A stretch of 64,000 nt of DNA, taken from positions 9,358 through 73,357 of the IMG/VR virus record IMGVR_UViG_3300045141_000130. One strand, written 5' to 3'. This DNA comes from a virus. The notes under the pieces are model-generated. The model had not been told where the DNA came from, did no database searches, and saw only the letters and a list, made by a program, of their open reading frames with translations. Of this stretch, positions 41,227 to 63,655 are shown piece after piece; within the stretch, counting starts at the first letter, position 1, and every line of letters starts with the position of its first letter. Made by a program: the position numbers and the translations under genes.

Positions 41227-41850
41227 ATGTTCAAGTTCCACCGCAGCAACGGCAAGCACGTCGCCGCCGAGCACACCTGCCCGCTGGCCGTCACCCTCCC
41301 CACCGTCGGCCGCCACGTCGACGCCCGGACCACCGCGAAGTTCATCGTGGCCGGTGCCAAGGTGCAGGCCGAGGCGATCATCGCCGAGGGCAAGGCGCAG
41401 GCCGAGTCGGTCCTCAAGGCCGACGCGGAGTTGCGCGTCAAGCTGGCCCAGATGACCGCTGACGCCAAGGCCGAGGCTGACGCCAAGGCCAAGGCGCAGC
41501 GCGACGCCCAGAGGGCGGCGGACAACGCCATCGCCGACTGGCGCTACGAGGCAGCCCGCGCCGACCGCCGCGAGCGCAAGCACCAGGTGCGTCTTGCCAA
41601 GGCGCAGAACGCCACCGCGGCGATGAGGGCCGCTGCCGACGAGAAGATCGCGGCGTTCAACGCCCAGGCCGCGAGCGCGGCAGCCGCGAACGACACGATC
41701 GACCTGGCCTTCCAGGCGAGCGAGATCCAGATGCTTGCCGAGCAGGTTGCGAAGCTCGCTGGTGACCTGGCTGCCAAGCAGGTCGAGAAGGACCTCGCCG
41801 ACCTGGCGATCCAGCACCTGATCGACCGGACGGTCCCTGCGGCCGCCTGA
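41227..41850 (+). CDS. Ala-rich coiled-coil hypothetical protein (first early gene)
   Basis: ATG after GGAGAGGA. 207 aa, starts MFKFHRSNGKHV. Confidence 0.75.
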   Translation: MFKFHRSNGKHVAAEHTCPLAVTLPTVGRHVDARTTAKFIVAGAKVQAEAIIAEGKAQAESVLKADAELRVKLAQMTADAKAEADAKAKAQRDAQRAADNAIADWRYEAARADRRERKHQVRLAKAQNATAAMRAAADEKIAAFNAQAASAAAANDTIDLAFQASEIQMLAEQVAKLAGDLAAKQVEKDLADLAIQHLIDRTVPAAA

Positions 41851-41990
41851 GACTTGGCGTGGCACGGCACGGCTGGGCTTGGCCTGGCGTGGCGTGGCCG
41901 GGCAAGCCATGGCTTGGCAAGGCATGGTTTGGCTGGGTCCGGCCTGGCAAGGCACGGCGCGGCAAGGTAAGGGTCCCTCGCAAGGGGGAC
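41851..41990 (+). repeat. GGY-NN pentamer array 1 (24 units) plus GCAA-loop hairpin; putative guide RNA
   Basis: GACTT GGCGT GGCAC GGCAC GGCTG...GGTAA GG, then GTCCCTC-GCAA-GGGGGAC. Confidence 0.92.
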
Positions 41991-46619: not shown

Positions 46620-47975
46620 GTGACAACAGCGAGTCCCGAGCGCATCGGAAATGCGCACACCGCAGTAGCGCGAGGTGCCGAGTTCGGCGACATCCTCGCG
46701 TTGCTCAACAAGCAGCAGGCCAGGAAGGTCGACATCGTCATTCCTGGCAGCAAACTGCTCGTCCGGGACGGCATGCTCGTCGTCGCCGACGACGTCGTCG
46801 ACATGAGCGACGAAGGGGTGACCCGGGTCGGCGGCGAGTATTGGCCCACCACCTGGTTCGACGCCCACGTCGCCGAACGGTTGGACATTCCTGTTGCCTA
46901 TCTGCGCCGCCTGCGCAACGGCAGGGAGATCGTCGGCACCAGGGGTCGCAGCCGCACCCTCGGCCCGCGACTGGACCTGTACGACAGCAACGTCAACGGG
47001 TTGTTCCGCGGCAACGACGACGTCCCGCCGGACCTGCGGAACTTCTACGCCCGGCTGCTCGTCCCCGACGACCAGGACACCAACGGCATCGCCTACGCGC
47101 TGATGTCCTCCAAGTACTGGAGGCTGGACAACTACGACGCGATCATGGCCACCCTGTCCGGCATCCGCAAGGCCGGGATCGACCCGCTGTCGTTGCACAT
47201 CTACGGCGACCTGTCGGAGACGAAGCTGTACCTGCACGTCCACGCGCCGCAGGTGCTCACCGCCGCACCCGAACTGCTGCGCAACTACCGCAGCCCGTTC
47301 GACATCCAGGGCGAGGCAAGCAAACGCCAGGTTCCGGCCTACACGCTGGAGCAGAGGGTGGCCATGGGCCGCCAGTGGCGGGAGACCCACCGGCTGGACG
47401 AACACATCCAGCCCGGCTCCGAACCGCTCGTCCACTCCGGTTTCCTGATCACCAACTCGGAGATCGGGCAGGGCCGCTGGTCCATCCAGAAGGAGATCGT
47501 CTTCCTGGCGTGCACCAACGGGATGACCTTGACGGCGGGCCGTTTCGAGCGGCGGCACGTCGGCAGCGACCAGGAGGAGGGCCAGGTCGAATGGTCGGCG
47601 GAAACCCGTGACGCCGAGTTGCAGTGGATCGTCTCCTCGACCGCCGACATCGTGGCCGATGCGCTCAACCCGGAATCCCTGGAGAACACCGTCACCGCCC
47701 TGGAGCAGAAGGCGGGGCGCACCGTGGACGACCCGCGACGCACCATCGCGGTCGTCGCCCAGAAGCACCTGTTCAACAAGGACGAGGAGGAGGCGATCCT
47801 CCGCCACTTCGAGTTGGGTCAGGCCTTCACCAGTGCCGGTGTGGCGCAGGCCATCTCGTCCGTCGCCCAGATGTACGAGGACCCGGACCGGGCGCACAAG
47901 CTGACCGACGCCGCCATCCCCGCGATGGAACTCGTCCACTCCCTGAGAAGTACCGGGAGTCGGGCATCCCTCTGA
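46620..47975 (+). CDS. DUF932-family protein
   Basis: GTG after AAGGAGGG. AERLDIPVAYLRRL, ALMSSKYWRLDN, GFLITNSEIGQG, FLACTNGM, ERRHVG. Confidence 0.78.
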   Translation: MTTASPERIGNAHTAVARGAEFGDILALLNKQQARKVDIVIPGSKLLVRDGMLVVADDVVDMSDEGVTRVGGEYWPTTWFDAHVAERLDIPVAYLRRLRNGREIVGTRGRSRTLGPRLDLYDSNVNGLFRGNDDVPPDLRNFYARLLVPDDQDTNGIAYALMSSKYWRLDNYDAIMATLSGIRKAGIDPLSLHIYGDLSETKLYLHVHAPQVLTAAPELLRNYRSPFDIQGEASKRQVPAYTLEQRVAMGRQWRETHRLDEHIQPGSEPLVHSGFLITNSEIGQGRWSIQKEIVFLACTNGMTLTAGRFERRHVGSDQEEGQVEWSAETRDAELQWIVSSTADIVADALNPESLENTVTALEQKAGRTVDDPRRTIAVVAQKHLFNKDEEEAILRHFELGQAFTSAGVAQAISSVAQMYEDPDRAHKLTDAAIPAMELVHSLRSTGSRASL

Positions 47976-48356
47976 GACCTGGCAAGGCCGGGAGAGGCCG
48001 GGCGAGGCATGGCTAGCTTTGGCACGCAAGGGCGAGGCTTGGCTTGGCTAGGCGTGGCAAGGCGTGGCTAGGCGGGGAATGGCAAGGCGAGGTATGGAAT
48101 GCCGAGGCGGTGCATGGCCGGGCTAGGCCAGGTTCGGCGCGGTATGGCTCGGCAAGGCATGGCGAGGCTCGGTTGGGTCGGCCATGGCGAGGCAAGGCTA
48201 GGCGAGGCGCGGTGTGGCAAGGCGGGGTTCGGCAAGGTCAGGTTCGGCGTGCTCCGGTTTGGTATGGCCAGGTCGGGCTAGGCACGGTCGGGTCCGGTTC
48301 GGCGGGCCTGGGCATGGTATGGGCTCCCCGTAAGTCCCTCATTTGGGCCGGGGAGC
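47976..48356 (+). repeat. GGY-NN pentamer array 2 (69 units) plus UAAGU-bulged hairpin; putative guide RNA
   Basis: GACCT GGCAA GGCCG...GGCAT GGTAT GG in unbroken 5-nt register 47976-48320. Hairpin 48323-48356. Confidence 0.93.
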
Positions 48357-48391
48357 AAACAACAAATCCCTTGAGAGGAAAGGATTTTCGC

Positions 48392-48802
48392 ATGACAGGA
48401 GGACCATCAGACGGGGCGTACGAAGTCCTGAACACGATGCTTCACGACATGCTTCACAGCCCGGGGGCGCAGGCCACGTTCAACATGGACACGCCGATGG
48501 CGACACTCATCGACACGTTCGATCTGGCCTTGCCGCCGGACTCCGACGAGAACTTCACCTGCGATCTGTGCGACCAGGTACACCGGGAGGGCCTGGACCG
48601 CATCGTCACCGCATTCGAGCCTGGCGAGCCACCCACCGACGGCAGCCCCGGGTACGTCAAGATGATCGCCGCCGCGGGCAAGAGCCCCACAGATCTGGCC
48701 ATGGAGAAACTCGACCGACCGAGGGTGATCCTGGTCCTGTACTCGTGCCGCAACTGCTCGCTGGAGATCCAGCAGGGGATGGACCGCCAGGAAACCTTCT
48801 GA
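48392..48802 (+). CDS. Zn-binding hypothetical protein
   Basis: Start MTGGPSD after GAGGAAAGGA. CDLC...CRNC. Confidence 0.65.
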   Translation: MTGGPSDGAYEVLNTMLHDMLHSPGAQATFNMDTPMATLIDTFDLALPPDSDENFTCDLCDQVHREGLDRIVTAFEPGEPPTDGSPGYVKMIAAAGKSPTDLAMEKLDRPRVILVLYSCRNCSLEIQQGMDRQETF

Positions 48803-49226
48803 GACGTGCTGTGGCATGGCGTGACTCGGTGGGGCGAGGCGGGGCATGCTTTGGCGCGGCGAGGCGGGGCTAGGCGTGGCCAGGCACGGCGCGGTTCGGC
48901 TCGGCGGGGCGAGGCGAGACATGGCAGGCCAAGGCAGGGCACGGTGCGGTTCGGCTGGCCATGGCTTGGTGTTGGCACGGCTGGGCTCGGCAGGGAATGG
49001 CTAGGCCTGGTTTGGTGCGGCCGGGAGTGGCTCGGCTAGGCAAGGTCGGGTTAGGCGTGGCTCGGCGTGGCAAGCCTTGGCGCGGCGCGGTGTGATCAGG
49101 TTGGGTGTGCCGCGGTTTGGCTTGGTCGGGTTAGGCGCGGCGTGGCATGACTTGGCTCGGTGTGGCTCGGCATGGAAGGCCAGGGCACGGTTTGGGTTCT
49201 CCGTAAGTCCCTTCGGGCCGGAGAAC
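48803..49226 (+). repeat. GGY-NN pentamer array 3 (78 units, one 6-nt unit) plus UAAGU-bulged hairpin; putative guide RNA
   Basis: GACGT GCTGT GGCAT...GGCAC GGTTT GG. Hairpin GTTCTCCG...CGGAGAAC at 49196-49226. Confidence 0.93.
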
Positions 49227-49280
49227 AAAGGGGGATTGGGGGGGGCGTATACAACCTCGAAACTCTTTGGGAGAACAAGA

Positions 49281-50339
49281 ATGACGAGTACGGAAACACA
49301 GATACGTGCAGTGTCTGACGCACCGTTCGCAATGACGCCGCATTTGTTGCGGATGCTGCGCGAGCGGCCTGTCGGGGTCCAGCGGATCCTGCGCAGGACC
49401 GACACCGGGGAGTTGAGGGCGTTCCTCGACCCCACCGCCGCAGACCAGGGCTTCTGGACCGCCCTCCCCGTCTGGCGTTCGGCGGAATGGCGCTACGACG
49501 ACAGCCGCTGGCTGGCCAGCACCGGCAGCCTGTCGTCGCCGGAGAACCTGGTGGACAACCTCGGCTGGTTCGACGTCCCGATCGTCTGGGCCATCACCGA
49601 GACCCCGTACTTCGCGGAGTTGCTCGCGGCCCGGTCGGACGACACGGTGCTGGTGATGGGTGACCCGCGGGACGGCGAACTGCGGTGCTACAAGGAGCGG
49701 AACTGGGACGAGTACCCCGCCCAGAGCGGCTGGCAGGCGTGGCCGACCGTCCGCGATCCCCTCAACCGGTCCTACGGCCCGGATCTCAACTGGCTGACCC
49801 ACAACTTCGGCGCCGTCTCCCTGCAGCAGGTCAAGGACGCCGGTTTCATCAAGGTGTGGGAGAAGGCCGAGGAGAACCCCATCCTCGTCGAGGTCAACCC
49901 GGAGGTGAACCGGCTGCAACTGCGCATCACCGACCTGGAGTCCACCCTGGCCACTCTGCGCACCCAGAACCAGACGCAGCAGCGGCGCCTGGAGCAGATG
50001 TCCAACGACCACGAGCGGTTCAAGGAGTTGGTGTCCTCCACCGCCACCAAGTACGCCCGGCGGCACGACTGGTGCTCCGTCGTCGACGAGGCGCTGGAGG
50101 AGATGGGACTGGAGAGGGAGCCGGTCAGCTTCAGCGGGGTCATCAGCGTCCGCATCAACTTCACCGCCAACCGCACCGACGGTGAACGTGGCACCCCGAA
50201 CGCCCGTGACGTCAACCGCTGGCTGTACGGCGAGGATGACGTGCGTGAAGCCATCGGCGAGAACCTCAGCCTCGACGAGGATTACGCCGGTGACTTCGAG
50301 ATCGACAGCTACAGCTTCGAGGTCATCTCCACCTCGTAG
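49281..50339 (+). CDS. Hypothetical protein (Trp-rich N-terminus, coiled coil)
   Basis: Start MTSTETQIR after GGGAGA. 352 aa. Confidence 0.72.
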   Translation: MTSTETQIRAVSDAPFAMTPHLLRMLRERPVGVQRILRRTDTGELRAFLDPTAADQGFWTALPVWRSAEWRYDDSRWLASTGSLSSPENLVDNLGWFDVPIVWAITETPYFAELLAARSDDTVLVMGDPRDGELRCYKERNWDEYPAQSGWQAWPTVRDPLNRSYGPDLNWLTHNFGAVSLQQVKDAGFIKVWEKAEENPILVEVNPEVNRLQLRITDLESTLATLRTQNQTQQRRLEQMSNDHERFKELVSSTATKYARRHDWCSVVDEALEEMGLEREPVSFSGVISVRINFTANRTDGERGTPNARDVNRWLYGEDDVREAIGENLSLDEDYAGDFEIDSYSFEVISTS

Positions 50340-50420
50340 TGCGCTACGCAGTAGCAGCCCCCCTGCCACCCGGCAGGGGGGCTTCCTTGTCCGCAAAAAC
50401 ACCTGAAAGGTGGTTCTGCT

Positions 50421-51041
50421 GTGCCAGACGTCGACGACGAAGACCCGTCACGACACACGTACGAGAGCCGGGAGATGGCCGAACGGGAACTGGCGGGCTG
50501 GTTCCCGCCGTCGGTCCCCGAGGAGGCCAAACCGGAACTCATGCGCATCGCCATCGTCGAACACCCCGGGCAGGAACCCCTGCGCACCCTGTGGAGCATC
50601 CACCCGGAGTTCGTCTACCTGACGAACCCCGAACTGTGGATGCTCGTCACCTGGATCACCGGTGACGAGCGTTCCCGCGGCAGCCTCCGCGGGATACCGC
50701 TGCTACTGGTCCAGCTGGCAGCGCTGCGCGATCACCATGTCGCGCTCATCGGGCAACTCAACGAACTGACATCCAACCAGGAGGCAAACACCATGACCGA
50801 ACCCATCAACGTCGACCCCAGCACCGTGATCCATCAGGGAACGATCAGCATCGCCATCGACTTCCGGGCAACCTTGGCGCCCACCGAGTTCCTGGAGGGC
50901 GACGACATCGAGGAGGCGCTGAACAAGTTCGCCGACCTGGAGGCGATCAAGAACGCCATCAAGGCCGCTCCCCGGCTCGACGGCATCTCCATCGAGAGCA
51001 TCTCGTTCGGTGCTCAGGTGGCCAGCTTTTTGACCAGCTGA
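50421..51041 (+). CDS. Hypothetical protein, with a strong internal in-frame start at 50793
   Basis: GAAAGGTGG before GTG 50421. AGGAGG before ATG 50793. Confidence 0.55.
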   Translation: MPDVDDEDPSRHTYESREMAERELAGWFPPSVPEEAKPELMRIAIVEHPGQEPLRTLWSIHPEFVYLTNPELWMLVTWITGDERSRGSLRGIPLLLVQLAALRDHHVALIGQLNELTSNQEANTMTEPINVDPSTVIHQGTISIAIDFRATLAPTEFLEGDDIEEALNKFADLEAIKNAIKAAPRLDGISIESISFGAQVASFLTS

Positions 51042-51047
51042 CCTTCT

Positions 51048-51218
51048 GACGTGGCCAGGGCTTGGCAAGCCGTGGCGGGGTCGGGTCGGCCGTGGCGTGG
51101 CTAGACAGGGCCGGGTTTGGTGTGGCTCGGAATGGTGCGGCGAGCCAGGGTTCGGCTCGGCATGGCATGGCCGGGTTCGGTGAGGTATGGGGCCCCCCAG
51201 CCTTCGGGCTGGGGGGCC
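51048..51218 (+). repeat. GGY-NN pentamer array 4 (~28 units) plus cUUCGg hairpin; putative guide RNA
   Basis: GACGTG GCCAG GGCTT GGCAA...GGTGA GGTAT GG, then GGCCCCCCAGCC-TTCG-GGCTGGGGGGCC. Confidence 0.93.
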
Positions 51219-51240
51219 ATCCTCGTCGCAGGGGGGTTGC

Positions 51241-51429
51241 GGCGAGGCTGGCTGAGGCGCGGCGCGGCGGGGCAGGGTCCGGCTTGGCCAGGCATGGCTG
51301 GGCGAGGTTGGGTGTGGGGTGGTTAGCCGAGGTCCGGCGCGGCTGGCTGGGGTTCGGCGGGGTGGGGCTTGGTCTGGCGTGCCCAGGCACGGTGAGGTAT
51401 GGGGCCCGCCACGGGGGGTGTGGCGAGCC
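51241..51429 (+). repeat. GGY-NN pentamer array 5 (32 units) plus hairpin; putative guide RNA
   Basis: GGCGA GGCTG...GGTGA GGTAT GG, then GGCCCGCCAC...GTGGCGAGCC. Confidence 0.92.
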
Positions 51430-51431
51430 AT

Positions 51432-51789
51432 GGATAGGACTGGCAAGGCTGGACCTGGCGGGGCAAGGTCGGACAGGGCAAGGCGTGGCCTGGTGCGGCT
51501 GGGTTAGGCACGGCCTGGTGCGGCTAGCTTCGGCGGGGCGTTGGCTCGGCATGGCCTGCCGTGGAAAGGTTGGCCGAGGCAAGGCGTGGCAAGGCGCGGC
51601 GAGGTGAGGCCTGGCAGGGCAGGGCGCGGCGAGGCGGGGCAGGCCACGGCGGGGCGAGGTGTGGTCAGGTTCAGGTGGGGTCTGGGTCTGGCGTGGCAGC
51701 GGCTGGGCCAGGCCCGGTTTGGCCAGGCGCGGCGTGGTATGGGCCGCCCGTAAGTCCTTAGCCGCCGGATGCGGCTAAGGCCGGGCGGC
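51432..51789 (+). repeat. GGY-NN pentamer array 6 (~61 units, four 6-nt units) plus UAAGU-bulged hairpin; putative guide RNA
   Basis: GGATA GGACT GGCAA...GGCGT GGTAT GG. Hairpin 51743-51789. Confidence 0.9.
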
Positions 51790-51814
51790 GAAACAAGTCT
51801 TCCTTCCAATCTCA

Positions 51815-51937
51815 GGCTAGGCATGCCGAGCACAGGCATGGCCTGGATAGGTGCGGCGCGCTGCGGTTGGCCGTGGCTCGGCAGGGAAAGGCTTGGCAAG
51901 GCGAGGTATGGGTCCCCAAGGAGAAGCCTTGCGGGAC
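51815..51937 (+). repeat. GGY-NN pentamer array 7 (19 units) plus hairpin; putative guide RNA
   Basis: GGCTA GGCAT...GGCGA GGTAT GG, then GTCCCCAAGG-AGAAG-CCTTGCGGGAC. Directly upstream of the RAMP gene. Confidence 0.9.
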
Positions 51938-51956
51938 AAGAACAAAGGAGCACGCC

Positions 51957-52640
51957 GTGGTTACACGGAGCCGCAGTACCGCAGTGAAGCCGGACCCGGA
52001 GCCGAACGCTCTGGACGGTGATGTGAGCGACTCGGGCAACGCCACGTACGAGGCCAACCGGCCCTTCCGGGCGGCCGTCGAGATCACCGGCGACTCGGTG
52101 ATCCTGTTCCACCGTTGGCAGTCCGACGCGGTCGACGCGAAGGCCGCTGCCGCCAAGGGGTCCCGAGCGAAGAAGACCGATGATGTTGATTCTTACGTTT
52201 GGGAGAACGAGAACGGGGTGCTGTGCCTGCCCGGCGAGTACCTGCGTTGCTCGCTCACCAACCCGCAGAACGGTGCCGCGAAGTACCTTCAGGACCCGCG
52301 GTCCCCCCGCAAGTCGGCCTTGGATTTGTTCAAGGCTGGTGTTGTCAGCCTCACCGACCTGGCCCCGATCACCAAGGCGGACGGCACACCGGCCGAGGGC
52401 TGGGACCACCTGGACCGCCGCCGCGTGGTGGTGCAGAGGTCGGGCGTCACCCGCTCCCGGCCCGCATTCGCCACCGGCTGGAAGGCGGAGATCATTTTGA
52501 TGTCTCTGCTGCCTCAATACATCAGCCCGTCATTGCTGCGGACGACGCTGTCCGACGCTGGGAAACTCGTTGGGGTGGGCGACTTCCGGCCCACCTTCGG
52601 CCGGTTCAGCGTCACGAAGTTTGAGGTCCTCCAGGACTAG
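51957..52640 (+). CDS. Stand-alone RAMP/Cas7-like RNA-binding protein (putative effector of the GGY-NN arrays)
   Basis: GTG after AAAGGAG, 227 aa. N-terminal strand AAVEITGDSVILFH. GVLCLPGEYLRCSL resembles the Cas7-group IPGSSxKG motif. Basic thumb-like DRRRVVVQRSGVTRSRP. C-terminal Gly-rich loop AGKLVGVGDFRPTFGRFSV. Confidence 0.78.
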   Translation: MVTRSRSTAVKPDPEPNALDGDVSDSGNATYEANRPFRAAVEITGDSVILFHRWQSDAVDAKAAAAKGSRAKKTDDVDSYVWENENGVLCLPGEYLRCSLTNPQNGAAKYLQDPRSPRKSALDLFKAGVVSLTDLAPITKADGTPAEGWDHLDRRRVVVQRSGVTRSRPAFATGWKAEIILMSLLPQYISPSLLRTTLSDAGKLVGVGDFRPTFGRFSVTKFEVLQD

Positions 52641-52901
52641 GCGAGGCTGGGCTGGGCATGGCGCGGCTGGGCGCGGCAAGGCCTGGCTAGGAATGGCAAG
52701 CCGGGGCGCGGCTAGGCGAGGCTGGGCGGGGTCAGGTGGGGCTAGGTTCGGCGTGGCATGGCGAGACATGGCTCGGCTGGGCAAGGCGTGCCTTGGCAAG
52801 GCGCGGCGCGGCTGGGAAAGGCAAGGTCGGGTGGGGCCTGGCGAGGTCCGGCCGGGTATGCCGAGGCTCGGTGAGGTATGGGTTTCACCCTCGGGTGAGA
52901 C
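52635..52901 (+). repeat. GGY-NN pentamer array 8 (49 units) plus hairpin; putative guide RNA
   Basis: GACTA GGCGA (overlapping the TAG stop)...GGTGA GGTAT GG, then GTTTCACC-CTCG-GGTGAGAC. Confidence 0.93.
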
Positions 52902-52918
52902 GAGAAGTATTGGCCTGC

Positions 52919-52947
52919 TTGCGTTCTCGGTTTTGACCCCATACAAT
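52919..52947 (+). promoter_or_regulatory. SigA-like promoter
   Basis: TTGCGT-N17-TACAAT. Confidence 0.65.
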
Positions 52948-53075
52948 GGGGACATGCCTTCCGAACAACTGGGCGCCGCTGAGGCGAACACCAGCGGGAG
53001 GCGAAGCACTGGATGTCCGTTGCGGGGTGCAAGTCCCCGGTTCCTGCAAAGAGCCACGGAGTCCGGTTCGACCTA

Positions 53076-53111
53076 GAGGCCCCGCCTGATTCGTCAGGCG
53101 GGGCCTCTTTC
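53076..53111 (+). terminator. Intrinsic terminator-like hairpin
   Basis: GAGGCCCCGCCTGA-TTCG-TCAGGCGGGGCCTC followed by TTT. Confidence 0.65.
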
Positions 53112-53170
53112 GTTGTGTGCCCGGCAGCATTCCCGCTGCCGGGCTTTCGCATTTCTCCAAGGAGGAGAGC

Positions 53171-53479
53171 ATGACAACAGCGGTTGTGAAGAAGGCAAAA
53201 GCGGGGACCGTGCTCGTCACGGCCGAGATGTACGCCGTGATCCGCGAGACGAAGAAGGGCCACGTCAAGGTGGACCTGATGCTCCGCCTGCCGAAGCCGA
53301 GCCAGCAGGGACTGGTACGGCTGTGCCGCCGCACCTTCTACGCCTACGGGCACACCGGCTACCGGTCCCAGGACGCACAGCGCTGGGCTGAGGCGGAGGC
53401 CTGGGCCAACGCCCGGCTGTACGCGCTGAGCACCGGCCCACGCCGCCAGTTCCTGTATCTCACCGGGGCGCAGAACTGA
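53171..53479 (+). CDS. Hypothetical basic protein
   Basis: Start MTTAVVKK after AAGGAGGAG. Confidence 0.65.
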   Translation: MTTAVVKKAKAGTVLVTAEMYAVIRETKKGHVKVDLMLRLPKPSQQGLVRLCRRTFYAYGHTGYRSQDAQRWAEAEAWANARLYALSTGPRRQFLYLTGAQN

Positions 53480-57253: not shown

Positions 57254-60200
57254 TTAGTGCTTTATCGGGTTGACGAGCCGCTTCAGCTTCGCCTTCTTCT
57301 GCAGTTCCAGCGCCATCTTGTTGGCATCGGAGGCCACCACCTTGATCTGTGCGCCCGCGAACGACACCGTGCTGTCGTTCTTCTGCACCAGCTGACGCAG
57401 CAGGCCCTCCTCCACCTTCAGCGCGGGCACGATCGCCGCCGCCAGGGACTTGGTCAGGATGCTGGCCAACTGCTGCGCCGTGGCCATGGCGATGGTCTGG
57501 GCGGCCGGAGTGGTGGCGGCGTGGGCTGCGGGTTTTGCGGCAGCGGGATGGGCAGCCGCTGGATGGGCCGCCGGGTGGGCAGCCGGATGAGCGGGCCCTG
57601 CGTTCTTCTTCTTGGCGGCGTCCTCGGCCTCCTTCTTCTTGTTGGCCACCTCGGCGTCGTGCTGGCGCTTCGCCGCCACGGCCGCGTCGTGCTTCTTCTG
57701 GTTCGCCTCCTCGGCGTCGTGGCGCTCCTTGGCCGCCTTGTTGTCCGCGGCCTTGCGTGCCGCCAACTCGGCCATCTCCTTGCGGCGCTTCTCGTCTTCG
57801 AGGTACCGCTGCTTGGCCTCGTTCTCCTTCGCCTTCTTCTTCGCCGCGTCCTCGGCCGCCCGCTTGGCCGCCTTCTCCTTTTCGTCCTTGCGCTGCCGCA
57901 TCTCGTTCCCGGCCTCGGAGAACTGGCCGCCGACGAGGCCGCCCACGGCGTTCGACATCAGGTTGCCCATGAACTTCTCGCCGGTCATGTTCAGCGGCAG
58001 GATCAGTTCGTGGCCCGCCTCGCCGACGGTCGCCACATGCTGGGCCATGGTGATGCCGCCGGTGGCGTGGCCGGGACCGTGACCGGTGGTCCCCCCGGAC
58101 GGGCCTGATGCGTAGTGGGCGGGGTCCTGGTCGTGACTGGTGGCACTACCGGGCTGGCCGTAGTTGACGCCGCCCGCGGCGGGCTGCGGCACCTGGGCGG
58201 CGGCGTTGCCGATCGCCTGGGCGGCGGTGTTGATCCAGTTGATGTAGTCCTGCACGGCCTGCGGTCCGTACTCCGCCAGCTGACCCTTCGCCTGGTCGGC
58301 CATTTGGATGAGGCTGGAGTTCAGGTTGCCGGTCACCGACTGGAAGGAGTTCTTCAGATCCTCCCCGGCCCGTGTGAGGGTCAGGTTGTACTGGGTCTCC
58401 ATCTGCGACATGGCGATGCCGTGGTCGCGGGCCGCCTGCGATTGGGCGGTCGAGAAGTCCTGCTGCATGTCGGACAGGCTGCGGGTCTCGTCGGCCTTGG
58501 CGTTCTTGCGGGCGAGCAGGAAGTCGGCCTGCTGGTCTGACATTGACCGGTGGAAGTCGTCGACGGCGTTCTTCATCTGGGTGGAGAAGTCCACCGCCTG
58601 GTCGGCCAGGGAGGTCTTCAGGTCGTCCTTGGCCCGCTTCGACGTCTTGGCGAAGTCGGCCTCCCCGTCCTTCAGACTGGTCTGCAGGTCGGTCCACTGG
58701 TCCTTCAGGGACTGCTTGAAGTCGGCGCTCTCCCGGGCCGTGGTCTTCCGGAAGTCGGATGCCTCGTTGGCCATCGCCACCGCGTGGTCATGTTCGGACC
58801 GGCCCAGGTTCTTGGACTGGTCCTGCTGGGCCCGGGTGGTCTCCTTGACGAAGTCCGCGTACTGCTCCTTCATCGACAGGGTCAGGTCGGCGGTCGCGTC
58901 CTTGACGCTCTGCTGGTAGTCCTGCCAGGCGCGGGTCTGGGACTTCTGGAAGTCGGCCAGCTGACCGGCGTAGTCCAGGTTGCCGAGGTTCTGGGTCAGC
59001 TTCTGGGTGTCGGCCACCCTCGTCTTGACCTGGGCGTTGATCTGCCCGACCGTGTTCGGGTTGCGCTGCATCGACTTGATCAGAGCGTCCAGTTCCTGGG
59101 CGTTGGCCGGGTTGGCCAGGTCGAGGGTCTGGATGGTCTGGAGGGACACGCCCAGCGCCTTGGCCTTGTCCAGGTTCTTCAGCTGCTTCTCCAGGGCGGC
59201 GTTCTGTCGGGACAGGTTGCGCAGCATCCCACCGGCCCCCACGGTGGCCTGGCGCTGGATGCGCTGCATCGGGTTGTAGATGGCCTGGGCGGTCTTGGCA
59301 GCCTGCCGCTCCATCTGGGTGTTGAAGTCTTCCTGGGCCCGGTTGCGGTTCTTGTAGTAGTCGCGCTCCGACCGTTCCTGGCTGATCTGGAAGTGCTCCA
59401 ACTCCCGGGACTGGCTGGTGTGGAAGTCCTGGGAGGCCCGCAGCTGCTGGGTGTTGAAGTCCTCGACAGAGCGGGAGCGGTCCAGCTGGTACTGCGTCTC
59501 CTCCCGTTGGCGGCTGGTGTTGAAGTCCTCCCGGGACCGCGCCTCCTGCTTGTCGAAGTCGCGGGTCGCCCGGTTCGTCTGCGTGTGGTAGTCGCGCATC
59601 TGCCGGGTCCGCTGGGTGGTGAAGTCCTCCTCCGCCCGGGCCTGGGACTTGTTGGCGTCGCGGATCTCCCGGGTGCGGCTCAACTCGTACTGGTTGGTGT
59701 TGCGCTGCTGGGAGATCCCGAAGTCGCGGTAGGACCGGCCGCGCTGCGTGTAGTACTGCTGATCGCTGCGTTCCTGGCTGGTCTGGAAGTCCCGTTCGGT
59801 GCGTGACCTCTGGCGTCCGTACGACAGGGCCTGGTCGGCCATCTGGTTGTTGTAGGACTGGTCGGCCTGCTTGACGCTGGTCTGGTAGTCCTGGTAGGCG
59901 CGGGTCTGCTGGATGCCGAAGTCCTTGACCGCCTGGATCTTCTGGTGCGCCTGCTGGGTCAGGTCGCCCTCGCCCTGGGCCACCTGGATCACCGCGCCTG
60001 GCACCGCCGCGGCCTGCTCCGTCGAGGCACCCGGTGCGGTCCCGGCGGCGATGGCTGCTTTGCCTGCGGAGATCGAGTCGATCGCGTTCTGCAGGGGCGA
60101 GAAGTTGACCTGCGCGATCTGCTGCAGCTGCCCGGCGGCCTCAGCCGCCGCGTTGGACACATCCTTCAACGTCCCGGACAGGTCCTTGGACATGCCCAGG

Positions 60201-63200
60201 ATCAGCTGCTGGGCCTGCGCCGCCTGGTTGGGCCCGGCCCCGGCCTGCTTCATGGCGGTGCCGAGGACCGCGGCGACGGCCGCCTGCTGGACGCCCGGCT
60301 GGCCCGTCTGCGTCACCGCGGTTGCGATGCTCCCCATCGGGGCCAGGGTCTGTCCGAGCCGACCACCCATCTTGGACAGCTGTGCCAGGTCCGTCTGCTG
60401 GGGGGACGTGGGCGACGGCAGCGGAGCGTTCTGGGGTGCCGTGACCCCGGCGATCAGCTGTTCCTTCGTCATGTTGTGGTCTTGCAACCACTTCTTGCCG
60501 CTGTCGGAGTTCGCAACAGCGTTCGCCCAGGCAACCGTCCCCTGCTGGCCGGTGTCGAACAGGGACTGCACCATGCCGCCGGTGGCCTGCGACCCGGGGG
60601 TCCTGTACTTCTCGTTCAGGTTGTAGGAGTACCGCTTGTCATTGGGGGCCAACGGGTTGATGAGTTCCGCCGTGCCCTGCTGGGTGGAGTATCCGGCCAG
60701 CGCCTGCTGCAGTTGGTCACCCTGAAGTCCGAACTCGGTCGCCAGGGAGCCCGCGCCCGTCTGGATCCGGTTTCGCTGCGTCGTGTCCCGCCCGGCAGTG
60801 GCCTTTCCCATCATTCGCAGGGTGTTGATCATCTGCGCTGGTGAGGCCTGGTCGGTGACGCCGACGGTGCCCGCCTCGATGGCGGCCGTACCGCCGGTGA
60901 GCAGGCTCTTGAAGATGTCCGGGTTGCCCCCCTGCCCGGCGGCGGCGGCGCCGAACAGGGAGAAGTCCGGCTTGGAGGCCGCAACCCCACCCTTCTGACC
61001 CATCTCGTTGCCGAACTCGGTGAGGATCCCCTGGGCCAGCTTCTTGCGACTGTCGGCATTGCCGATCCCGGTCTTGTCGACGGCCGCAAGAACGTCGGTG
61101 CTGATCTGCTTGCCCTGCGTCCCGGACATGTCCGGGTTCTGGATGCCCAAGCCCTGCAGGTAGGTCAGGGTGTTCTTCTTGATCGCATCCTCGTTGCCAC
61201 CGGCCGACGCTACGGCCGTCCCCAGGCTGGCGTCGACCATCTTGTAGTCGCCCCTGCGGGCAGCGGTGACGTCCTCCGGTTGCAGCTGCAGGGACGTCTT
61301 CAACGGCACGTTCGCCATCGCGGCCAGCTTGTCGGCGGCTATGGCGGCCGAATCACCCAGCTTGGCCAGGTTGGAGGACGTCTGATCCAGCGCCTGGTCG
61401 TATTTGGCGGCGGGGTTGGCGGCCTGCATCGTGCCCGCGTCCATCGCAACGTCCTGCTGATGCCTCTTCACCGAGGACTGGATGGCACCTACGACCCCCA
61501 TTCCAGCCATTGCGCCCACCCCGATGAGTGGGTTCTCGGCGAGGAGGCCCATCGCACCGCCGATGCCCTTGGACAGCCACGACGCACCGGTGGCCGCGCC
61601 CTGCACGCCCCGCAGCAAGCCCTTCCCGGCGACCCCCATAGGAGTCGTCGGCAGCTTGCGAGCACCGGCACCGGCCAGGTCGGCGACGGTTCCGGTGAGC
61701 GTCTCGGCCATCTCGGGTCCGGCCCGGGCTAGGCCGCCGCGAAGCTGCTTCGCGTTCGACTTGCCCCCGGAGACGTCGACCCCGGCGGCCTTGAGTTCCC
61801 CCGTTCGGTCCAGGCCCTCGGTGTTGCGTTCCCGCATCGGGATCTGGTTTGACTGCAGCACCCAGTTCGCAACCCCGGCAACCTTGTCGCCGAGGCCGCT
61901 GCCCGAGATCGTGGGCATCTTGAACCCGGAAGTTGCGGCCGCGGCACCCGCCGGAGCCGCCTTCGTCGCGGCGGCCGTCGCGGCGGTCGCTGCGGCAGCG
62001 GCTGTTGCCGCATTGGTCGCCGCGGCGGCCGGAGGCTGGCCTCCCTGGCCTTGCTGCCATCCAGCGCCCCAGGCCCCGCCGACGCCGCCGCCGAACAGCT
62101 TGCCCAGGAACCCGCCGAAGCTGCCCCCGCCGCTGGTGCCGCCCATCAGGTTGGGGTTGCGGCGGCCCAGGTCGAATGCGGCAGCGGTGTGCCCGGACAG
62201 CTTGCCGCCCACGAACCGCCTGCCGTACGGGTCGGCCATCAGGGCGTCGGCCTCGTCCATACCGCCTGCGACAGCAGCGGACACGCTCTGCCCGGCGCCG
62301 ATCGCCTGGCGCCAGGCGGCCTTCTTGCCGAAGGCGTACTTGGCAGTCCCTGCGGCGGCGGCCAACCCTGCGTGGGCCAGCCCGAACGCAGCCGGTACGG
62401 CAGCCACGCCGACTGCGGTGGCGGCAATGCCAGGAATCGGGCCGAGCGCCTTCAAGAAGCTGTCGAGCCCACCGACCGCCTTGCCGAACAGGTCGACCAG
62501 GGTTGTCAGCGGCTTGAGCAGGGGGTCGCCGATGATCTGCGCCAGGTCGGTGAACTTGTTGCGCACGCTGGTCAGCGAGTCGGTGAGCCCCGACATGGCC
62601 GCCTTCGATGCGGTGTCCAGTTGGTTGCCACCCTGGTAGGCGCCCTGCCCGACACCCATCAGCTGTTGGATGCCGCCGGTCTGCGCCATCTTCTGGATGG
62701 CGCCCTGCACCCGGATGCCACCCAGGTCCTGGCTGAAGACGTCGGCCCGCGCCCCGCCCTTGGCGATCTGGTTGAAGATCCCGCCGGTGGCCTGCAGTGC
62801 TGACATCTGTCTGAACTGCTGCTGGCTGACACCGAGGAAGCCGGAGTACTTGCTTACGTCGCCGCCGGAGGTCTTCAGCTGCTGGATGGTGGACAGCAGG
62901 GAACTGAAGGCGTTCGCGGCGACCTGACCGTCCGCACCGGCCTTCTGGAACGCTGCCGACAGGGCCAACGTCTGGCTCTCGGCGACGCCCGCCTGGCGGG
63001 CGAAGGGTGCGATGGCGGAGGCGAAGTCGGTGATCGACTGGGCGGAGACACCGGCCGTCTTGGACAGCACCAGGAGTTCGTTGTTGAACTTCTCGATCTT
63101 CGAGGTGTCCAGGTTGCCCATCTGCTTGGCCAGCGTGATGCCGCTGGACGCAAGGGAGGTGGAGTCCTCGCCGGTGGCCGCGCCCATCTTGGTGTAGCTG

Positions 63201-63655
63201 GCGGTCAGCCGGGTGATGTCGGGGGCCTTGACGACCCCCATGTTGCTGATGGCGGTGGCCAGCTGGACGACCTGTTCGCGCCACACGGGGAACTGGTTGA
63301 AGACGCCGGTGAGGCCCGCCTTCAGCTGGTTCATGTTGGTGCCGGTGACGGTGGCGGTCGCCGACAGGGTGCCCAGCTGGGACTCGAAGCGGGCCGCCAC
63401 GCCCACCGCGGCACCGAGTGAGGCGAAGTCCCCCACCGAGAAGTGCATCAGCGTCTTCCCGGCCCGCTTCGCCAGCCCCTCGGCGTGCTGCGCGGCGACG
63501 CCCAGCGCGGAGGCCAGCTGCTGGGCCTGGGCGGTGGCCTGCTGCATCCCCTGGGTGAAGCCGGAGACGTCGGCGTTCAGGTCGACGGTGACGGCGCGGG
63601 AGACCTGGCCGCCCATGCCGGGGTCGGCGAAGGACTGCGAGAAGGGGGAACTCAT
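57254..63655 (-). CDS. Tape measure protein
   Basis: 2133 aa, Ala/Gly-rich. N-terminal VTVDLNADVSGF, TP901-like core, long 11-residue RxxxDF periodic helix. Follows the tail chaperone. Confidence 0.92.
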   Translation of the reverse strand: MSSPFSQSFADPGMGGQVSRAVTVDLNADVSGFTQGMQQATAQAQQLASALGVAAQHAEGLAKRAGKTLMHFSVGDFASLGAAVGVAARFESQLGTLSATATVTGTNMNQLKAGLTGVFNQFPVWREQVVQLATAISNMGVVKAPDITRLTASYTKMGAATGEDSTSLASSGITLAKQMGNLDTSKIEKFNNELLVLSKTAGVSAQSITDFASAIAPFARQAGVAESQTLALSAAFQKAGADGQVAANAFSSLLSTIQQLKTSGGDVSKYSGFLGVSQQQFRQMSALQATGGIFNQIAKGGARADVFSQDLGGIRVQGAIQKMAQTGGIQQLMGVGQGAYQGGNQLDTASKAAMSGLTDSLTSVRNKFTDLAQIIGDPLLKPLTTLVDLFGKAVGGLDSFLKALGPIPGIAATAVGVAAVPAAFGLAHAGLAAAAGTAKYAFGKKAAWRQAIGAGQSVSAAVAGGMDEADALMADPYGRRFVGGKLSGHTAAAFDLGRRNPNLMGGTSGGGSFGGFLGKLFGGGVGGAWGAGWQQGQGGQPPAAAATNAATAAAAATAATAAATKAAPAGAAAATSGFKMPTISGSGLGDKVAGVANWVLQSNQIPMRERNTEGLDRTGELKAAGVDVSGGKSNAKQLRGGLARAGPEMAETLTGTVADLAGAGARKLPTTPMGVAGKGLLRGVQGAATGASWLSKGIGGAMGLLAENPLIGVGAMAGMGVVGAIQSSVKRHQQDVAMDAGTMQAANPAAKYDQALDQTSSNLAKLGDSAAIAADKLAAMANVPLKTSLQLQPEDVTAARRGDYKMVDASLGTAVASAGGNEDAIKKNTLTYLQGLGIQNPDMSGTQGKQISTDVLAAVDKTGIGNADSRKKLAQGILTEFGNEMGQKGGVAASKPDFSLFGAAAAGQGGNPDIFKSLLTGGTAAIEAGTVGVTDQASPAQMINTLRMMGKATAGRDTTQRNRIQTGAGSLATEFGLQGDQLQQALAGYSTQQGTAELINPLAPNDKRYSYNLNEKYRTPGSQATGGMVQSLFDTGQQGTVAWANAVANSDSGKKWLQDHNMTKEQLIAGVTAPQNAPLPSPTSPQQTDLAQLSKMGGRLGQTLAPMGSIATAVTQTGQPGVQQAAVAAVLGTAMKQAGAGPNQAAQAQQLILGMSKDLSGTLKDVSNAAAEAAGQLQQIAQVNFSPLQNAIDSISAGKAAIAAGTAPGASTEQAAAVPGAVIQVAQGEGDLTQQAHQKIQAVKDFGIQQTRAYQDYQTSVKQADQSYNNQMADQALSYGRQRSRTERDFQTSQERSDQQYYTQRGRSYRDFGISQQRNTNQYELSRTREIRDANKSQARAEEDFTTQRTRQMRDYHTQTNRATRDFDKQEARSREDFNTSRQREETQYQLDRSRSVEDFNTQQLRASQDFHTSQSRELEHFQISQERSERDYYKNRNRAQEDFNTQMERQAAKTAQAIYNPMQRIQRQATVGAGGMLRNLSRQNAALEKQLKNLDKAKALGVSLQTIQTLDLANPANAQELDALIKSMQRNPNTVGQINAQVKTRVADTQKLTQNLGNLDYAGQLADFQKSQTRAWQDYQQSVKDATADLTLSMKEQYADFVKETTRAQQDQSKNLGRSEHDHAVAMANEASDFRKTTARESADFKQSLKDQWTDLQTSLKDGEADFAKTSKRAKDDLKTSLADQAVDFSTQMKNAVDDFHRSMSDQQADFLLARKNAKADETRSLSDMQQDFSTAQSQAARDHGIAMSQMETQYNLTLTRAGEDLKNSFQSVTGNLNSSLIQMADQAKGQLAEYGPQAVQDYINWINTAAQAIGNAAAQVPQPAAGGVNYGQPGSATSHDQDPAHYASGPSGGTTGHGPGHATGGITMAQHVATVGEAGHELILPLNMTGEKFMGNLMSNAVGGLVGGQFSEAGNEMRQRKDEKEKAAKRAAEDAAKKKAKENEAKQRYLEDEKRRKEMAELAARKAADNKAAKERHDAEEANQKKHDAAVAAKRQHDAEVANKKKEAEDAAKKKNAGPAHPAAHPAAHPAAAHPAAAKPAAHAATTPAAQTIAMATAQQLASILTKSLAAAIVPALKVEEGLLRQLVQKNDSTVSFAGAQIKVVASDANKMALELQKKAKLKRLVNPIKH

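What the first reader, a model, noticed from the sequence alone, without database searches (positions are those of the whole stretch)
51316..51385. Guide block spelling VYDPACGSGGFLVQ: the SAM-binding motif I of HsdM-type N6-adenine methyltransferases
Seen: 14 consecutive NN = gt ta ga cc gc tg gg tc gg gg tt ct gt ca, i.e. V Y D/E P A C/W G S G G F/L L V H/Q. Established: (V/I)YDPACGSGGFL is the consensus motif I of type I R-M HsdM and related type IIG N6-MTases. I see no such gene in this window. Inference: the phage programs its RAMP complex against the most conserved stretch of host (or other mobile-element) restriction-modification operons, i.e. RNA-guided anti-defence. This is the strongest single proof of the gapped code.
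Basis: partly seen in the sequence, partly recalled or inferred. Interest (0 to 1): 0.95.

Follow-up and report, generated by a model that had tools for sequence, protein, structure and literature searches.

The report
Phage VIPR guide aimed at hsdM
A soil phage carries a recently described CRISPR-like system (VIPR), and one of its five-base-step guide RNAs spells the most conserved motif of the methylase gene of type I restriction systems while skipping each codon's third base, so the phage may silence a bacterial defence gene.

Summary
The letters are exactly as reported. At 51316-51385, 14 in-register GGY-NN units carry NN = gt ta ga cc gc tg gg tc gg gg tt ct gt ca, which reads V Y D/E P A C/W G S G G F/L L V H/Q.

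The "gapped code" is not new. It is the published VIPR system (three 2026 bioRxiv preprints): a Vipr RAMP protein polymerises on GGY/NN repeat RNAs, and the NN bases read double-stranded DNA while skipping every third base.

The window holds a VIPR locus. The 227-aa ORF 51957-52640 matches the solved SUSP1 Vipr protein (profile E 3.3e-12). Eight GGY-NN arrays, each ending in GGTATGGG plus a hairpin, surround it.

The 11-unit core hits 112 genome stretches, and all 112 are in frame as YDPACGSGG(F/L)L. All 8 ORFs tested are Pfam N6_Mtase. Streptomyces genes match 27 or 26 of 28 read bases. They lie in hsdM-hsdS-hsdR operons or in a defence island. A reversed-pattern control found nothing in 301 genomes.

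No perfect 14-unit target was found. Only 14 of the array's 31 units match. Silencing and anti-restriction are inferred, not shown.

A related phage carries a guide against a second HsdM motif. This scan has noted hsdM-spelling VIPR guides before on other DNA (unchecked notes).

The parts
51316..51385 (+). The guide block of the finding: units 16-29 of array 5. Its NN string reads VYDPACGSGG(F/L)LV(H/Q), motif I of HsdM-type N6-adenine methyltransferases.
   Evidence: letters and register. (in-frame N6_Mtase hits). (27/28 and 26/28 matches in Streptomyces; reversed control 0).
51241..51400 (+). Array 5 (vrRNA 5): 31 GGY-NN units in one register plus the GGTAT junction unit.
51403..51429 (+). 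3' tail hairpin of array 5, directly after GGTATGGG.
   Evidence: MFE -18 kcal/mol; z only -1.2. All 8 arrays end the same way.
51957..52640 (+). vipr gene: a 227-aa RAMP (Cas7-like) protein.
   Evidence: phmmer E 4.2e-7 to PDB 36pp 'SUSP1 Vipr protein'; profile E 3.3e-12, the only hit; model pLDDT 84, top Foldseek hits are Csm3/Cas7 chains; 4854 homologues.
41851..41970 (+). Array 1: 24 units, starting GAC-TT at a TGA stop. Tail hairpin 41973-41990.
47976..48320 (+). Array 2: 69 units. Tail hairpin 48323-48356.
48803..49193 (+). Array 3: about 78 units with one 6-nt unit at 48968. Tail hairpin 49196-49226.
51048..51188 (+). Array 4: 28 units. Tail hairpin 51191-51218.
51432..51740 (+). Array 6: about 61 units, four of them 6 nt long. 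Tail hairpin 51743-51789.
51815..51909 (+). Array 7: 19 units. Tail hairpin 51912-51937.
52635..52879 (+). Array 8: 49 units, starting at the stop codon of vipr. Tail hairpin 52882-52901.
53075..53108 (+). Terminator-like hairpin with a T-rich tail; likely end of the + strand transcription unit that holds vipr and the arrays.
   Evidence: 15-pair stem. No sigma-70-like promoter was found in 47800-53200.

Best explanation
The window holds a VIPR (Viral Interference Programmable Repeat) system of a soil phage.

Mechanism, taken from the SUSP1 work and inferred here: the + strand tracts are transcribed and processed into vrRNAs. One Vipr protomer binds each GGY-NN unit, flips out GGY and presents NN. 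The filament binds double-stranded DNA whose sequence reads NNxNNx..., forms an R-loop triplex and blocks transcription.

Units 16-29 of array 5 are a guide whose selected target is the SAM-binding motif I, VYDPACGSGG(F/M)(L/F)(V/L)Q, of HsdM-type N6-adenine methyltransferase genes of type I restriction-modification systems. The skipped base falls on the codon wobble position, so one guide tolerates synonymous variation across many strains. The guide has the sense sequence, so it would pair with the template DNA strand and not with the mRNA.

The likely effect is to shut off hsdM and, by polarity, hsdS and hsdR in actinomycete hosts such as Streptomyces.

Shown here: the letters, Vipr homology, the array anatomy and the target match. 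Inferred: expression, processing, binding, silencing and benefit to the phage.
For: VIPR membership:
- Sequence and profile hits to the solved SUSP1 Vipr.
- The Cas7-like fold.
- In the alignment, G-loop D209-F210-R211 and thumb R168 align with SUSP1 D177-W178-R179 and R138. The residue roles come from 10.64898/2026.04.26.720927 Results.
- 299 of 366 parsed units are perfect GGY.
- All 8 arrays end in GGT(A/T)(A/T)GGG plus a hairpin.
- 15 of 17 related loci carry same-strand GGY-NN arrays beside vipr.

Target:
- 112 of 112 genome hits of the 11-unit core are in frame in the motif.
- 8 of 8 tested ORFs are N6_Mtase.
- 5 of 5 named Streptomyces genomes match at 1-2 mismatches in 28.
- 26 of 301 sampled genomes match at up to 3 mismatches, against 0 for the reversed pattern.
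- The G093 and G081 hits are followed by Methylase_S and HSDR_N genes.
- The G002 hit is PADLOC MTase_I with Specificity_I as the next gene and PglW divergent upstream.
- 27/28 and 26/28 exceed the 80% NN threshold the VIPR authors use for natural targets (Methods read).

Other support:
- No self-target: the best window on the whole phage genome scores 19/24, equal to the shuffled null.
- A relative (L376, Vipr 61% identical) has a guide matching the antisense strand of N6_Mtase genes at ..LLPENLFYN.., with all read bases on codon positions 1 and 2. It gives 40 hits of at least 21/24, against 0 to 2 in 18 shuffles.
- The block is identical in a contig of a second study's soil metagenome. It is kept with 4 differences in 87 nt in a diverged strain whose sequence just upstream does not align (contigs only).
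Against: - No exact 14-unit target exists in 185,579 species genomes or 241 million metagenome records. The longest exact run seen is 13 units.
- Only 14 of the 31 units of the tract match. The 15 upstream units match at about random level, and the 2 units between the block and the tail match poorly. The full tract scores only 38/62 on the best Streptomyces gene.
- Characterised vrRNAs have 9-16 units, and how 20-79-unit tracts are processed is unknown.
- No other guide window of this phage reaches 21/24 on seven 20-kb Streptomyces target loci or on the 3.65-Mb set of N6_Mtase loci. There is therefore no convergence of several guides on one element, as was reported for SUSP1.
- Recurrence is weak. 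I found 0 such guides in 300 arrays of 119 other IMG/VR loci and 0 in 100 arrays of 47 further Vipr-clade loci. No other viral contig carries the same 9-unit guide.
- The host is unknown.
- Timing: silencing transcription cannot remove pre-made R-M enzyme at DNA entry, so the benefit is unclear.
- No vap accessory gene was recognised.
Confidence: 0.7

Rival explanations
1. The guide is real, but its natural targets are methyltransferase or R-M genes carried by competing mobile elements (integrative elements, plasmids, defence islands that move). This would be ordinary VIPR inter-element conflict rather than relief of restriction for the phage itself.
For: Published natural VIPR targets are satellites, prophages and other VIPR systems (Results read). 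The best-matching Streptomyces gene (G002) lies in a region that fails the host-like GC3 filter. It sits next to PglW and a PDC-S27 candidate, which is a defence-island context of the kind often mobile. The timing objection to anti-restriction does not apply to silencing a rival element.
Against: The 11-unit core has 0 exact matches in 2.9 million viral contigs, against 112 in cellular genomes. In G093 and G081 the target heads ordinary chromosomal hsdMSR operons. I did not test mobility of any target locus.
Confidence: 0.2
2. The block is an inactive or passenger part of a long tract. The working vrRNA uses other units or another register, and the resemblance to motif I has no function today.
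For: The match covers 14 of 31 units and is offset by 2 units from the tail. Characterised vrRNAs pair over all 9-16 units. No RNA data exist for this phage.
Against: A 14-unit in-frame, wobble-skipping match to one of the most conserved prokaryotic motifs has a chance probability near 1e-17 per window. It must therefore have been selected at some time. The block is retained in a diverged strain while the sequence upstream of it does not align.
Confidence: 0.07
3. Pure coincidence: a reader scanning about 360 units for any familiar peptide will find something.
For: Single 20-21/24 matches do occur by chance in megabase targets.
Against: P is 1e-13.5 for the 11-unit core under the arrays' own composition. 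Even with 720 windows and a million acceptable motifs (my assumption), the expectation is about 2e-5. Shuffled guides never exceeded 21-22/24, whereas the block scores 24/24. The reversed pattern matched 0 of 301 genomes.
Confidence: 0.03

Closest known systems
VIPR systems (Vipr + vrRNA, usually + vap). The reference is type II of Escherichia phage SUSP1 and a Pseudomonas fulva prophage: bioRxiv 10.64898/2026.04.26.720920, .720927 and 10.64898/2026.10.15.759431.
   Same: A homologous Vipr protein. GGY/NN pentamer repeats flanking vipr on the same strand. A structured 3' tail. The 1-nt skip rule with the skip on the wobble base. A target inside a coding sequence at a catalytically essential motif. 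No self-target.
   Different: Tracts of 19-79 units instead of 9-16. The tail is GGTATGGG plus a simple hairpin of variable sequence (pseudoknot not tested). No recognisable vap gene. Eight tracts are spread over 11 kb, most starting right at a stop codon. The predicted target is a host-type R-M methyltransferase. The main texts of the three preprints do not mention this target class (supplements could not be read).
Class 1 CRISPR backbones (Cas7/Csm3 filaments of types I, III and VII)
   Same: A RAMP fold with G-loop and thumb. One protomer per repeat of the guide, with periodic base flipping. These are the top Foldseek hits.
   Different: No CRISPR repeats or spacers and no cas genes. The guide is non-contiguous (2 read, 3 hidden), and the target skips 1 base in 3.
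Staggered vrRNA arrays (legend of fig. S18 of 10.64898/2026.04.26.720920; legend only seen)
   Same: Long uninterrupted GGY/NN tracts that yield several vrRNAs. This could explain a 14-unit guide inside a 31-unit tract, and the 1-nt register shifts in arrays 3, 4 and 6.
   Different: Not shown here. No RNA ends are available, and array 5 has no register shift.
Protein anti-restriction factors of phages and plasmids (Ocr, ArdA; recalled, not searched here) and the phage-encoded CRISPR-Cas of Vibrio phage ICP1 against PLE (recalled)
   Same: A mobile element neutralising a host or rival defence. ICP1 is a precedent for a phage using RNA guidance against a defence element.
   Different: Ocr and ArdA act on the enzyme at once. 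VIPR would act on transcription of the gene, and therefore late.

Membership tests
VIPR system | Vipr protein: a minimal RAMP homologous to described Vipr | tested here: met
   E 4.2e-7 to PDB 36pp 'SUSP1 Vipr protein'; profile of 36 homologues E 3.3e-12, the only PDB hit; model pLDDT 84, 40 Foldseek hits at E<=1e-3, led by Csm3/Cas7 chains.
VIPR system | G-loop and thumb residues that hold the GGY bases (SUSP1 D177, W178, R179, R138) | tested here: met
   In the alignment D209, F210 (aromatic in place of W), R211 and R168 align with them. In the 36-sequence alignment R168 and R211 are invariant, and D209 and F210 are at least 90% conserved. Roles are from the paper.
VIPR system | Tandem GGY/NN pentamer repeats next to vipr, with hypervariable NN | tested here: met
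   Eight tracts; 299 of 366 units are perfect GGY. All 16 NN are used. An 8-unit GGCNN pattern gave 9 matches in the window against 0 in 100 shuffles.
VIPR system | Invariant structured 3' tail after the repeat tract | tested here: inconclusive
   8 of 8 tracts end in GGT(A/T)(A/T)GGG plus a hairpin. The stems differ in sequence, and 4 of 8 hairpins have z-scores weaker than -2. A pseudoknot could not be tested.
VIPR system | vrRNA of 9-16 repeat units | tested here: not met
   The tracts have 19-79 units. Relatives also reach 45 units. Mature RNA ends are unknown.
VIPR system | Accessory vap gene beside vipr | tested here: not met
   The 9 neighbour proteins scanned had no Pfam family, and their only PHROG hit was phrog_1362 (unknown function) for the 485-aa protein. 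None of 13 neighbour proteins has a homologue in the flanks of 18 related loci. The papers say 'typically' two genes, so this does not exclude membership.
VIPR system | Natural target obeys the 1-nt skip rule at 80% NN match or better, with the skip on the wobble base | tested here: met
   27/28 and 26/28 matches in Streptomyces N6_Mtase genes, in frame. This holds for the 14-unit block only, not the whole 31-unit tract.
VIPR system | vrRNA expressed and bound by Vipr; target-dependent silencing | not testable with these tools
   No RNA run holds the stretch. Needs bench work.
Type I R-M HsdM (the predicted target) | N6_Mtase catalytic domain with motif I at the matched site | tested here: met
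   8 of 8 ORFs match PF02384 at E<=1e-68. The G002 gene scores 8e-64 on PADLOC MTase_I.
Type I R-M HsdM (the predicted target) | HsdM_N domain and adjacent hsdS and hsdR | tested here: inconclusive
   HsdM_N is present in 3 of 8 ORFs. Methylase_S and HSDR_N lie directly downstream in G093 and G081, but neither Pfam family is found in G002, G004 or G005. In G002 the next gene is PADLOC Specificity_I, and no HsdR was seen.

The most novel reading that the evidence does not exclude
VIPR is used by soil actinophages as an RNA-guided, broad-spectrum anti-restriction device. A single wobble-skipping guide aimed at the invariant SAM-binding motif of hsdM shuts off type I R-M operons, whatever their specificity subunit, across many host strains. 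The Vipr clade repeatedly evolves guides to different invariant HsdM motifs: motif I here, LPENLFYN in relative L376. Long tracts would be concatenated guide modules that are swapped between strains.
Probability: 0.3. Interest if true: 0.85.

Novelty: new variant of a known kind. Interest (0 to 1): 0.62.

Why it matters
VIPR was described in 2026 as a tool of conflict between phages, satellites and prophages. A guide aimed at the most conserved codons of a host restriction-modification gene would add a new role: RNA-guided counter-defence by a virus. It would also give a clear reason for the wobble-skipping code, since one guide covers many alleles.

The idea can be tested directly with a known reporter assay and with Streptomyces strains that carry matching type I systems. 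The very long tracts, and the block-wise conservation seen between strains, also bear on how vrRNAs are processed and exchanged.

Tried and rejected
Other explanations for the 5-nt periodicity. Before finding the VIPR papers I considered translated read-through tails, G-quadruplex runs, Rho-related signals and TRAP-like protein-binding RNA. I dropped them once led to the VIPR preprints and one search showed Vipr homology.

Searches that gave nothing useful:
- Rfam: 0 families over the window at gathering score; only sub-threshold hits in 52860-53130.
- tRNA scan: 0.
- Near-identical phage search: none. Terminase tblastn against phages: none. The phage lineage and host therefore stay unknown.
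- A literature search for 'pentanucleotide repeat' found nothing relevant.

Exact target searches that failed:
- Full 14-unit pattern: 0 in genome contigs, 0 in metagenome contigs and 0 in the phage itself.
- 11-unit core: 0 in viral contigs.
None extended beyond 13 contiguous units, and most are low-GC.

Convergence tests that failed:
- Other guides of this phage on seven 20-kb Streptomyces loci: only one 20/24 hit, taken as chance.
- 300 arrays of 119 unrelated IMG/VR loci.
- 100 arrays of 47 further Vipr-clade loci.
- The same guide in 5-periodic form in other viral contigs.

Wobble variability at 31 target sites (majority fraction 0.88 at position 1, 0.99 at position 2, 0.68 at the skipped base) is partly circular. 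The sites were selected on the read positions, so I give it little weight.

L135 neighbour ORFs gave no Pfam hits, possibly because I chose wrong frames.

No RNA holder is listed for this stretch, so nothing can be said about expression. Read laying used contigs only; 70 differences were not displayed, so I cannot say where the 4 differences inside the block lie in run X3.

I did not fold a complex and did not run the representative-protein or atlas searches.

Print. That search found 413 papers holding at least 2 of the 5 terms; the 10 listed have no 'vrRNA'. Supplementary tables were closed. An earlier scan note says methylases appear among listed hits of the October preprint, and I could not check this.

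Full report
**What is at the coordinates.** The window is bases 9358-73357 of a 73,357-bp virus record with direct terminal repeats. It is 68% G+C. It carries phage genes: a Mu-like portal, a terminase domain and an XkdF-type protease. Eight intergenic tracts on the + strand, between 41851 and 52884, are built of 5-nt units with a near-constant GGC/GGT and a free dinucleotide. A register-tracking parse gives 366 units, of which 299 are perfect GGY. Each tract ends in GGT(A/T)(A/T)GGG followed by a hairpin of differing sequence. Five of them begin GAC-NN at or just after a stop codon. Positions 51316-51385 are units 16-29 of the 31-unit array 5 (51241-51395).

**What the tracts are.** A full-text search for the repeat formula led to three 2026 bioRxiv preprints on VIPR systems. 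I read the Results of 10.64898/2026.04.26.720920 and three of its Methods sections. I read the first part of the Results of 10.64898/2026.04.26.720927. From 10.64898/2026.10.15.759431 I read passages and one Methods section.

The preprints report the following:
- A minimal RAMP protein, Vipr, polymerises one protomer per GGY/NN unit.
- It flips out GGY and presents NN.
- The RNP binds double-stranded DNA reading two bases and skipping one, usually the codon wobble base.
- Binding silences transcription on either strand.

**Is this locus a VIPR system?** The 227-aa ORF 51957-52640 matches the solved "SUSP1 Vipr protein" (PDB 36pp) at E 4.2e-7. A profile of 36 homologues matches it at E 3.3e-12, and it is the only PDB hit. 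In the pairwise alignment, D209-F210-R211 and R168 align with the SUSP1 residues D177-W178-R179 and R138 that hold the two guanines and the pyrimidine. An AlphaFold model (pLDDT 84, pTM 0.76) finds Csm3/Cas7 chains of type III-A and type VII complexes first, with 40 hits at E<=1e-3. The family is large: 4854 proteins at E<=1e-3, nearly all unnamed. Of 17 related IMG/VR loci, 15 carry same-strand GGY-NN tracts beside vipr, some up to 45 units long.

The locus differs from the characterised type II systems in three ways:
- The tracts have 19-79 units, not 9-16.
- The tail is a simple hairpin.
- No accessory gene is recognisable.

No sigma-70-like promoter lies within 47800-53200. A strong terminator-like hairpin sits at 53075-53108. 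The tracts are therefore probably co-transcribed with the genes and then processed (inference).

**Is the HsdM reading real?** Written as NNx, the full 14-unit pattern has no exact match in 185,579 species genomes, in the metagenome collection or in the phage itself. The 11-unit core has 112 matches in the genome collection. All 112 are in frame as YDPACGSGG(F/L)L. All 8 ORFs I tested are Pfam N6_Mtase, and 3 of them have HsdM_N. The same core has 0 matches in 2.9 million viral contigs. The 12-unit form has at least 118 metagenome matches, none extending beyond 13 units.

In five genomes titled Streptomyces, the 14-unit pattern matches at 1-2 mismatches of 28 read bases. G002, G004 and G005 read VYDPACGSGGFLLQ, which is 27/28. 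In a sample of 301 genomes of that genus, 26 genomes (27 places) match at up to 3 mismatches: 2 places at 1 mismatch, 22 at 2 and 3 at 3. The commonest form is VYDPACGSGGMFVQ. The reversed pattern matches none. The centre genome G002 was chosen for its match, so the unbiased count is 25 of 300.

**What the targets are.** In G093 and G081 the matched gene (HsdM_N + N6_Mtase) is followed within 3 kb by Methylase_S and HSDR_N open frames. These are canonical hsdM-hsdS-hsdR operons. In G002 the matched gene is PADLOC MTase_I. The next gene is Specificity_I, a PglW kinase (1512 bits) lies divergently upstream, and a PDC-S27 candidate is nearby, so this is a defence island. Pfam Methylase_S and HSDR_N were not found in G002, G004 or G005.

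**Chance.** All 16 dinucleotides are used in the arrays. The probability of the block under the arrays' own NN frequencies is 1e-17, and 1e-13.5 for the core. Even granting 720 windows and a million acceptable motifs (my assumption), coincidence is about 2e-5. Shuffled guides reach at most 19-22 of 24 on 0.15-3.65 Mb of target DNA, while the block scores 24/24. The target sets were collected with the guide itself. The independent test is therefore.

**What argues for caution.**
- Only 14 of the 31 units match. The 15 upstream units and the 2 tail-side units match at near-random level, so the whole tract scores 38/62 on the best Streptomyces gene.
- No other guide window of this phage reaches 21/24 on seven 20-kb target loci or on the 3.65-Mb N6_Mtase set.
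- The phage does not target itself, as the authors also report for their systems.
- Recurrence is thin. I found no such guide in 300 arrays of 119 unrelated IMG/VR loci. There was none in 100 arrays of 47 further Vipr-clade loci. No second copy of this guide turned up in viral contigs.
- The one positive is relative L376 (Vipr 61% identical). The first 16 units of its 45-unit tract match the antisense strand of N6_Mtase genes at ..VILLPENLFYNT.., 150-210 codons after motif I. All read bases fall on codon positions 1 and 2. The match scores 21-22/24 at up to 23 sites per window, with 40 hits against 0-2 in 18 shuffles.
- Silencing transcription cannot remove R-M enzyme that is already present when the DNA enters. 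The benefit must therefore come later in infection, in lysogeny, or against R-M genes on rival elements (inference).

**Population data.** The stretch occurs in soil metagenomes of several studies, and no RNA run holds it. In a run of a second study, a contig covers 51316-51696 with no difference. A third study holds a diverged strain (32 differences in 501 nt of the upstream gene). One of its contigs covers 51319-51405 with 4 differences, while the 109 nt before 51319 and the tail hairpin do not align (contigs only, and the positions of the 4 differences were not shown). This hints that the tract is made of exchangeable guide modules with a boundary at the start of the block. That would fit the "staggered arrays" mentioned in a figure legend of the discovery paper. 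It is a hint and nothing more.

**Comparison with print, and novelty.** The class (VIPR), the skip rule and the logic of aiming at invariant codon positions are published. The October preprint shows this logic for a satellite recombinase active site. The words methyl*, restriction-modification, hsdM and anti-defense do not occur in the main texts of two of the preprints, and methyl* does not occur in the third. Supplements were closed. Notes of this scan report hsdM-spelling VIPR guides in other phage genomes. They are unchecked AI notes and do not count as support. One related claim partly fell on checking, which matches the weak recurrence I measured.

**Verdict.** The system is a new, long-tract variant of VIPR. 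The block is very probably a guide selected against motif I of HsdM-type genes. Whether it works as anti-restriction is open.

Noticed in passing
L376:5897-5976 (IMG/VR relative; Vipr 61% identical): The first 16 units of a 45-unit GGY-NN tract match the antisense strand of N6_Mtase genes at the conserved ..LLPENLFYN.. motif, with the skip on the wobble base. This is a second, independent HsdM-directed guide in a related phage: 40 hits of at least 21/24, against 0-2 in 18 shuffles.
   Followed up: partly
window 51319 and 51405-51477 (run X3): In a diverged strain the hsdM block is kept (4 differences in 87 nt). The 109 nt before it and the tail hairpin do not align. Array 6 is likewise conserved only for 51477-51639. 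This looks like block-wise turnover of guide modules inside long tracts.
   Followed up: partly
window 48968, 51053, 51537, 51668, 51679, 51695: Single 6-nt units shift the register by one base inside arrays 3, 4 and 6. These may be boundaries of staggered vrRNAs. Arrays 1, 2, 5, 7 and 8 have none.
   Followed up: no
window 48329-48352, 49202-49223, 51749-51786: Three of the eight tails share CCGTAAGTCC on the 5' arm and GGCCGG on the 3' arm, with different outer stems.
   Followed up: partly
window 52902-53074: About 170 nt of non-coding sequence lie between the tail of array 8 and the terminator, with a GGTTCGA T-arm-like element. No tRNA and no Rfam family were found. The fold z-score is only -1.7. 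Two relatives (L377, L379) show GGTTCGACT after their tracts.
   Followed up: partly
window 41848-41853, 47973-47978, 48800-48805, 51045-51050, 52632-52637: Five tracts begin with a GAC-NN unit at or 0-7 nt after the stop codon of the preceding gene. Three of them read TGAGAC. This suggests coupling of tract starts to gene ends.
   Followed up: no
window 21630-25961 (- strand) and 57254-63655 (- strand): A 1443-aa protein with eight collagen triple-helix repeat stretches, and a 2133-aa ORF that I did not examine.
   Followed up: no
L370:4063-8775 (Streptomyces G002): The best-matching target gene lies beside a full-length PglW kinase (PADLOC 1512 bits) and a PDC-S27 candidate, so the island combines an M+S pair with Pgl/BREX-type parts.
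   Followed up: partly
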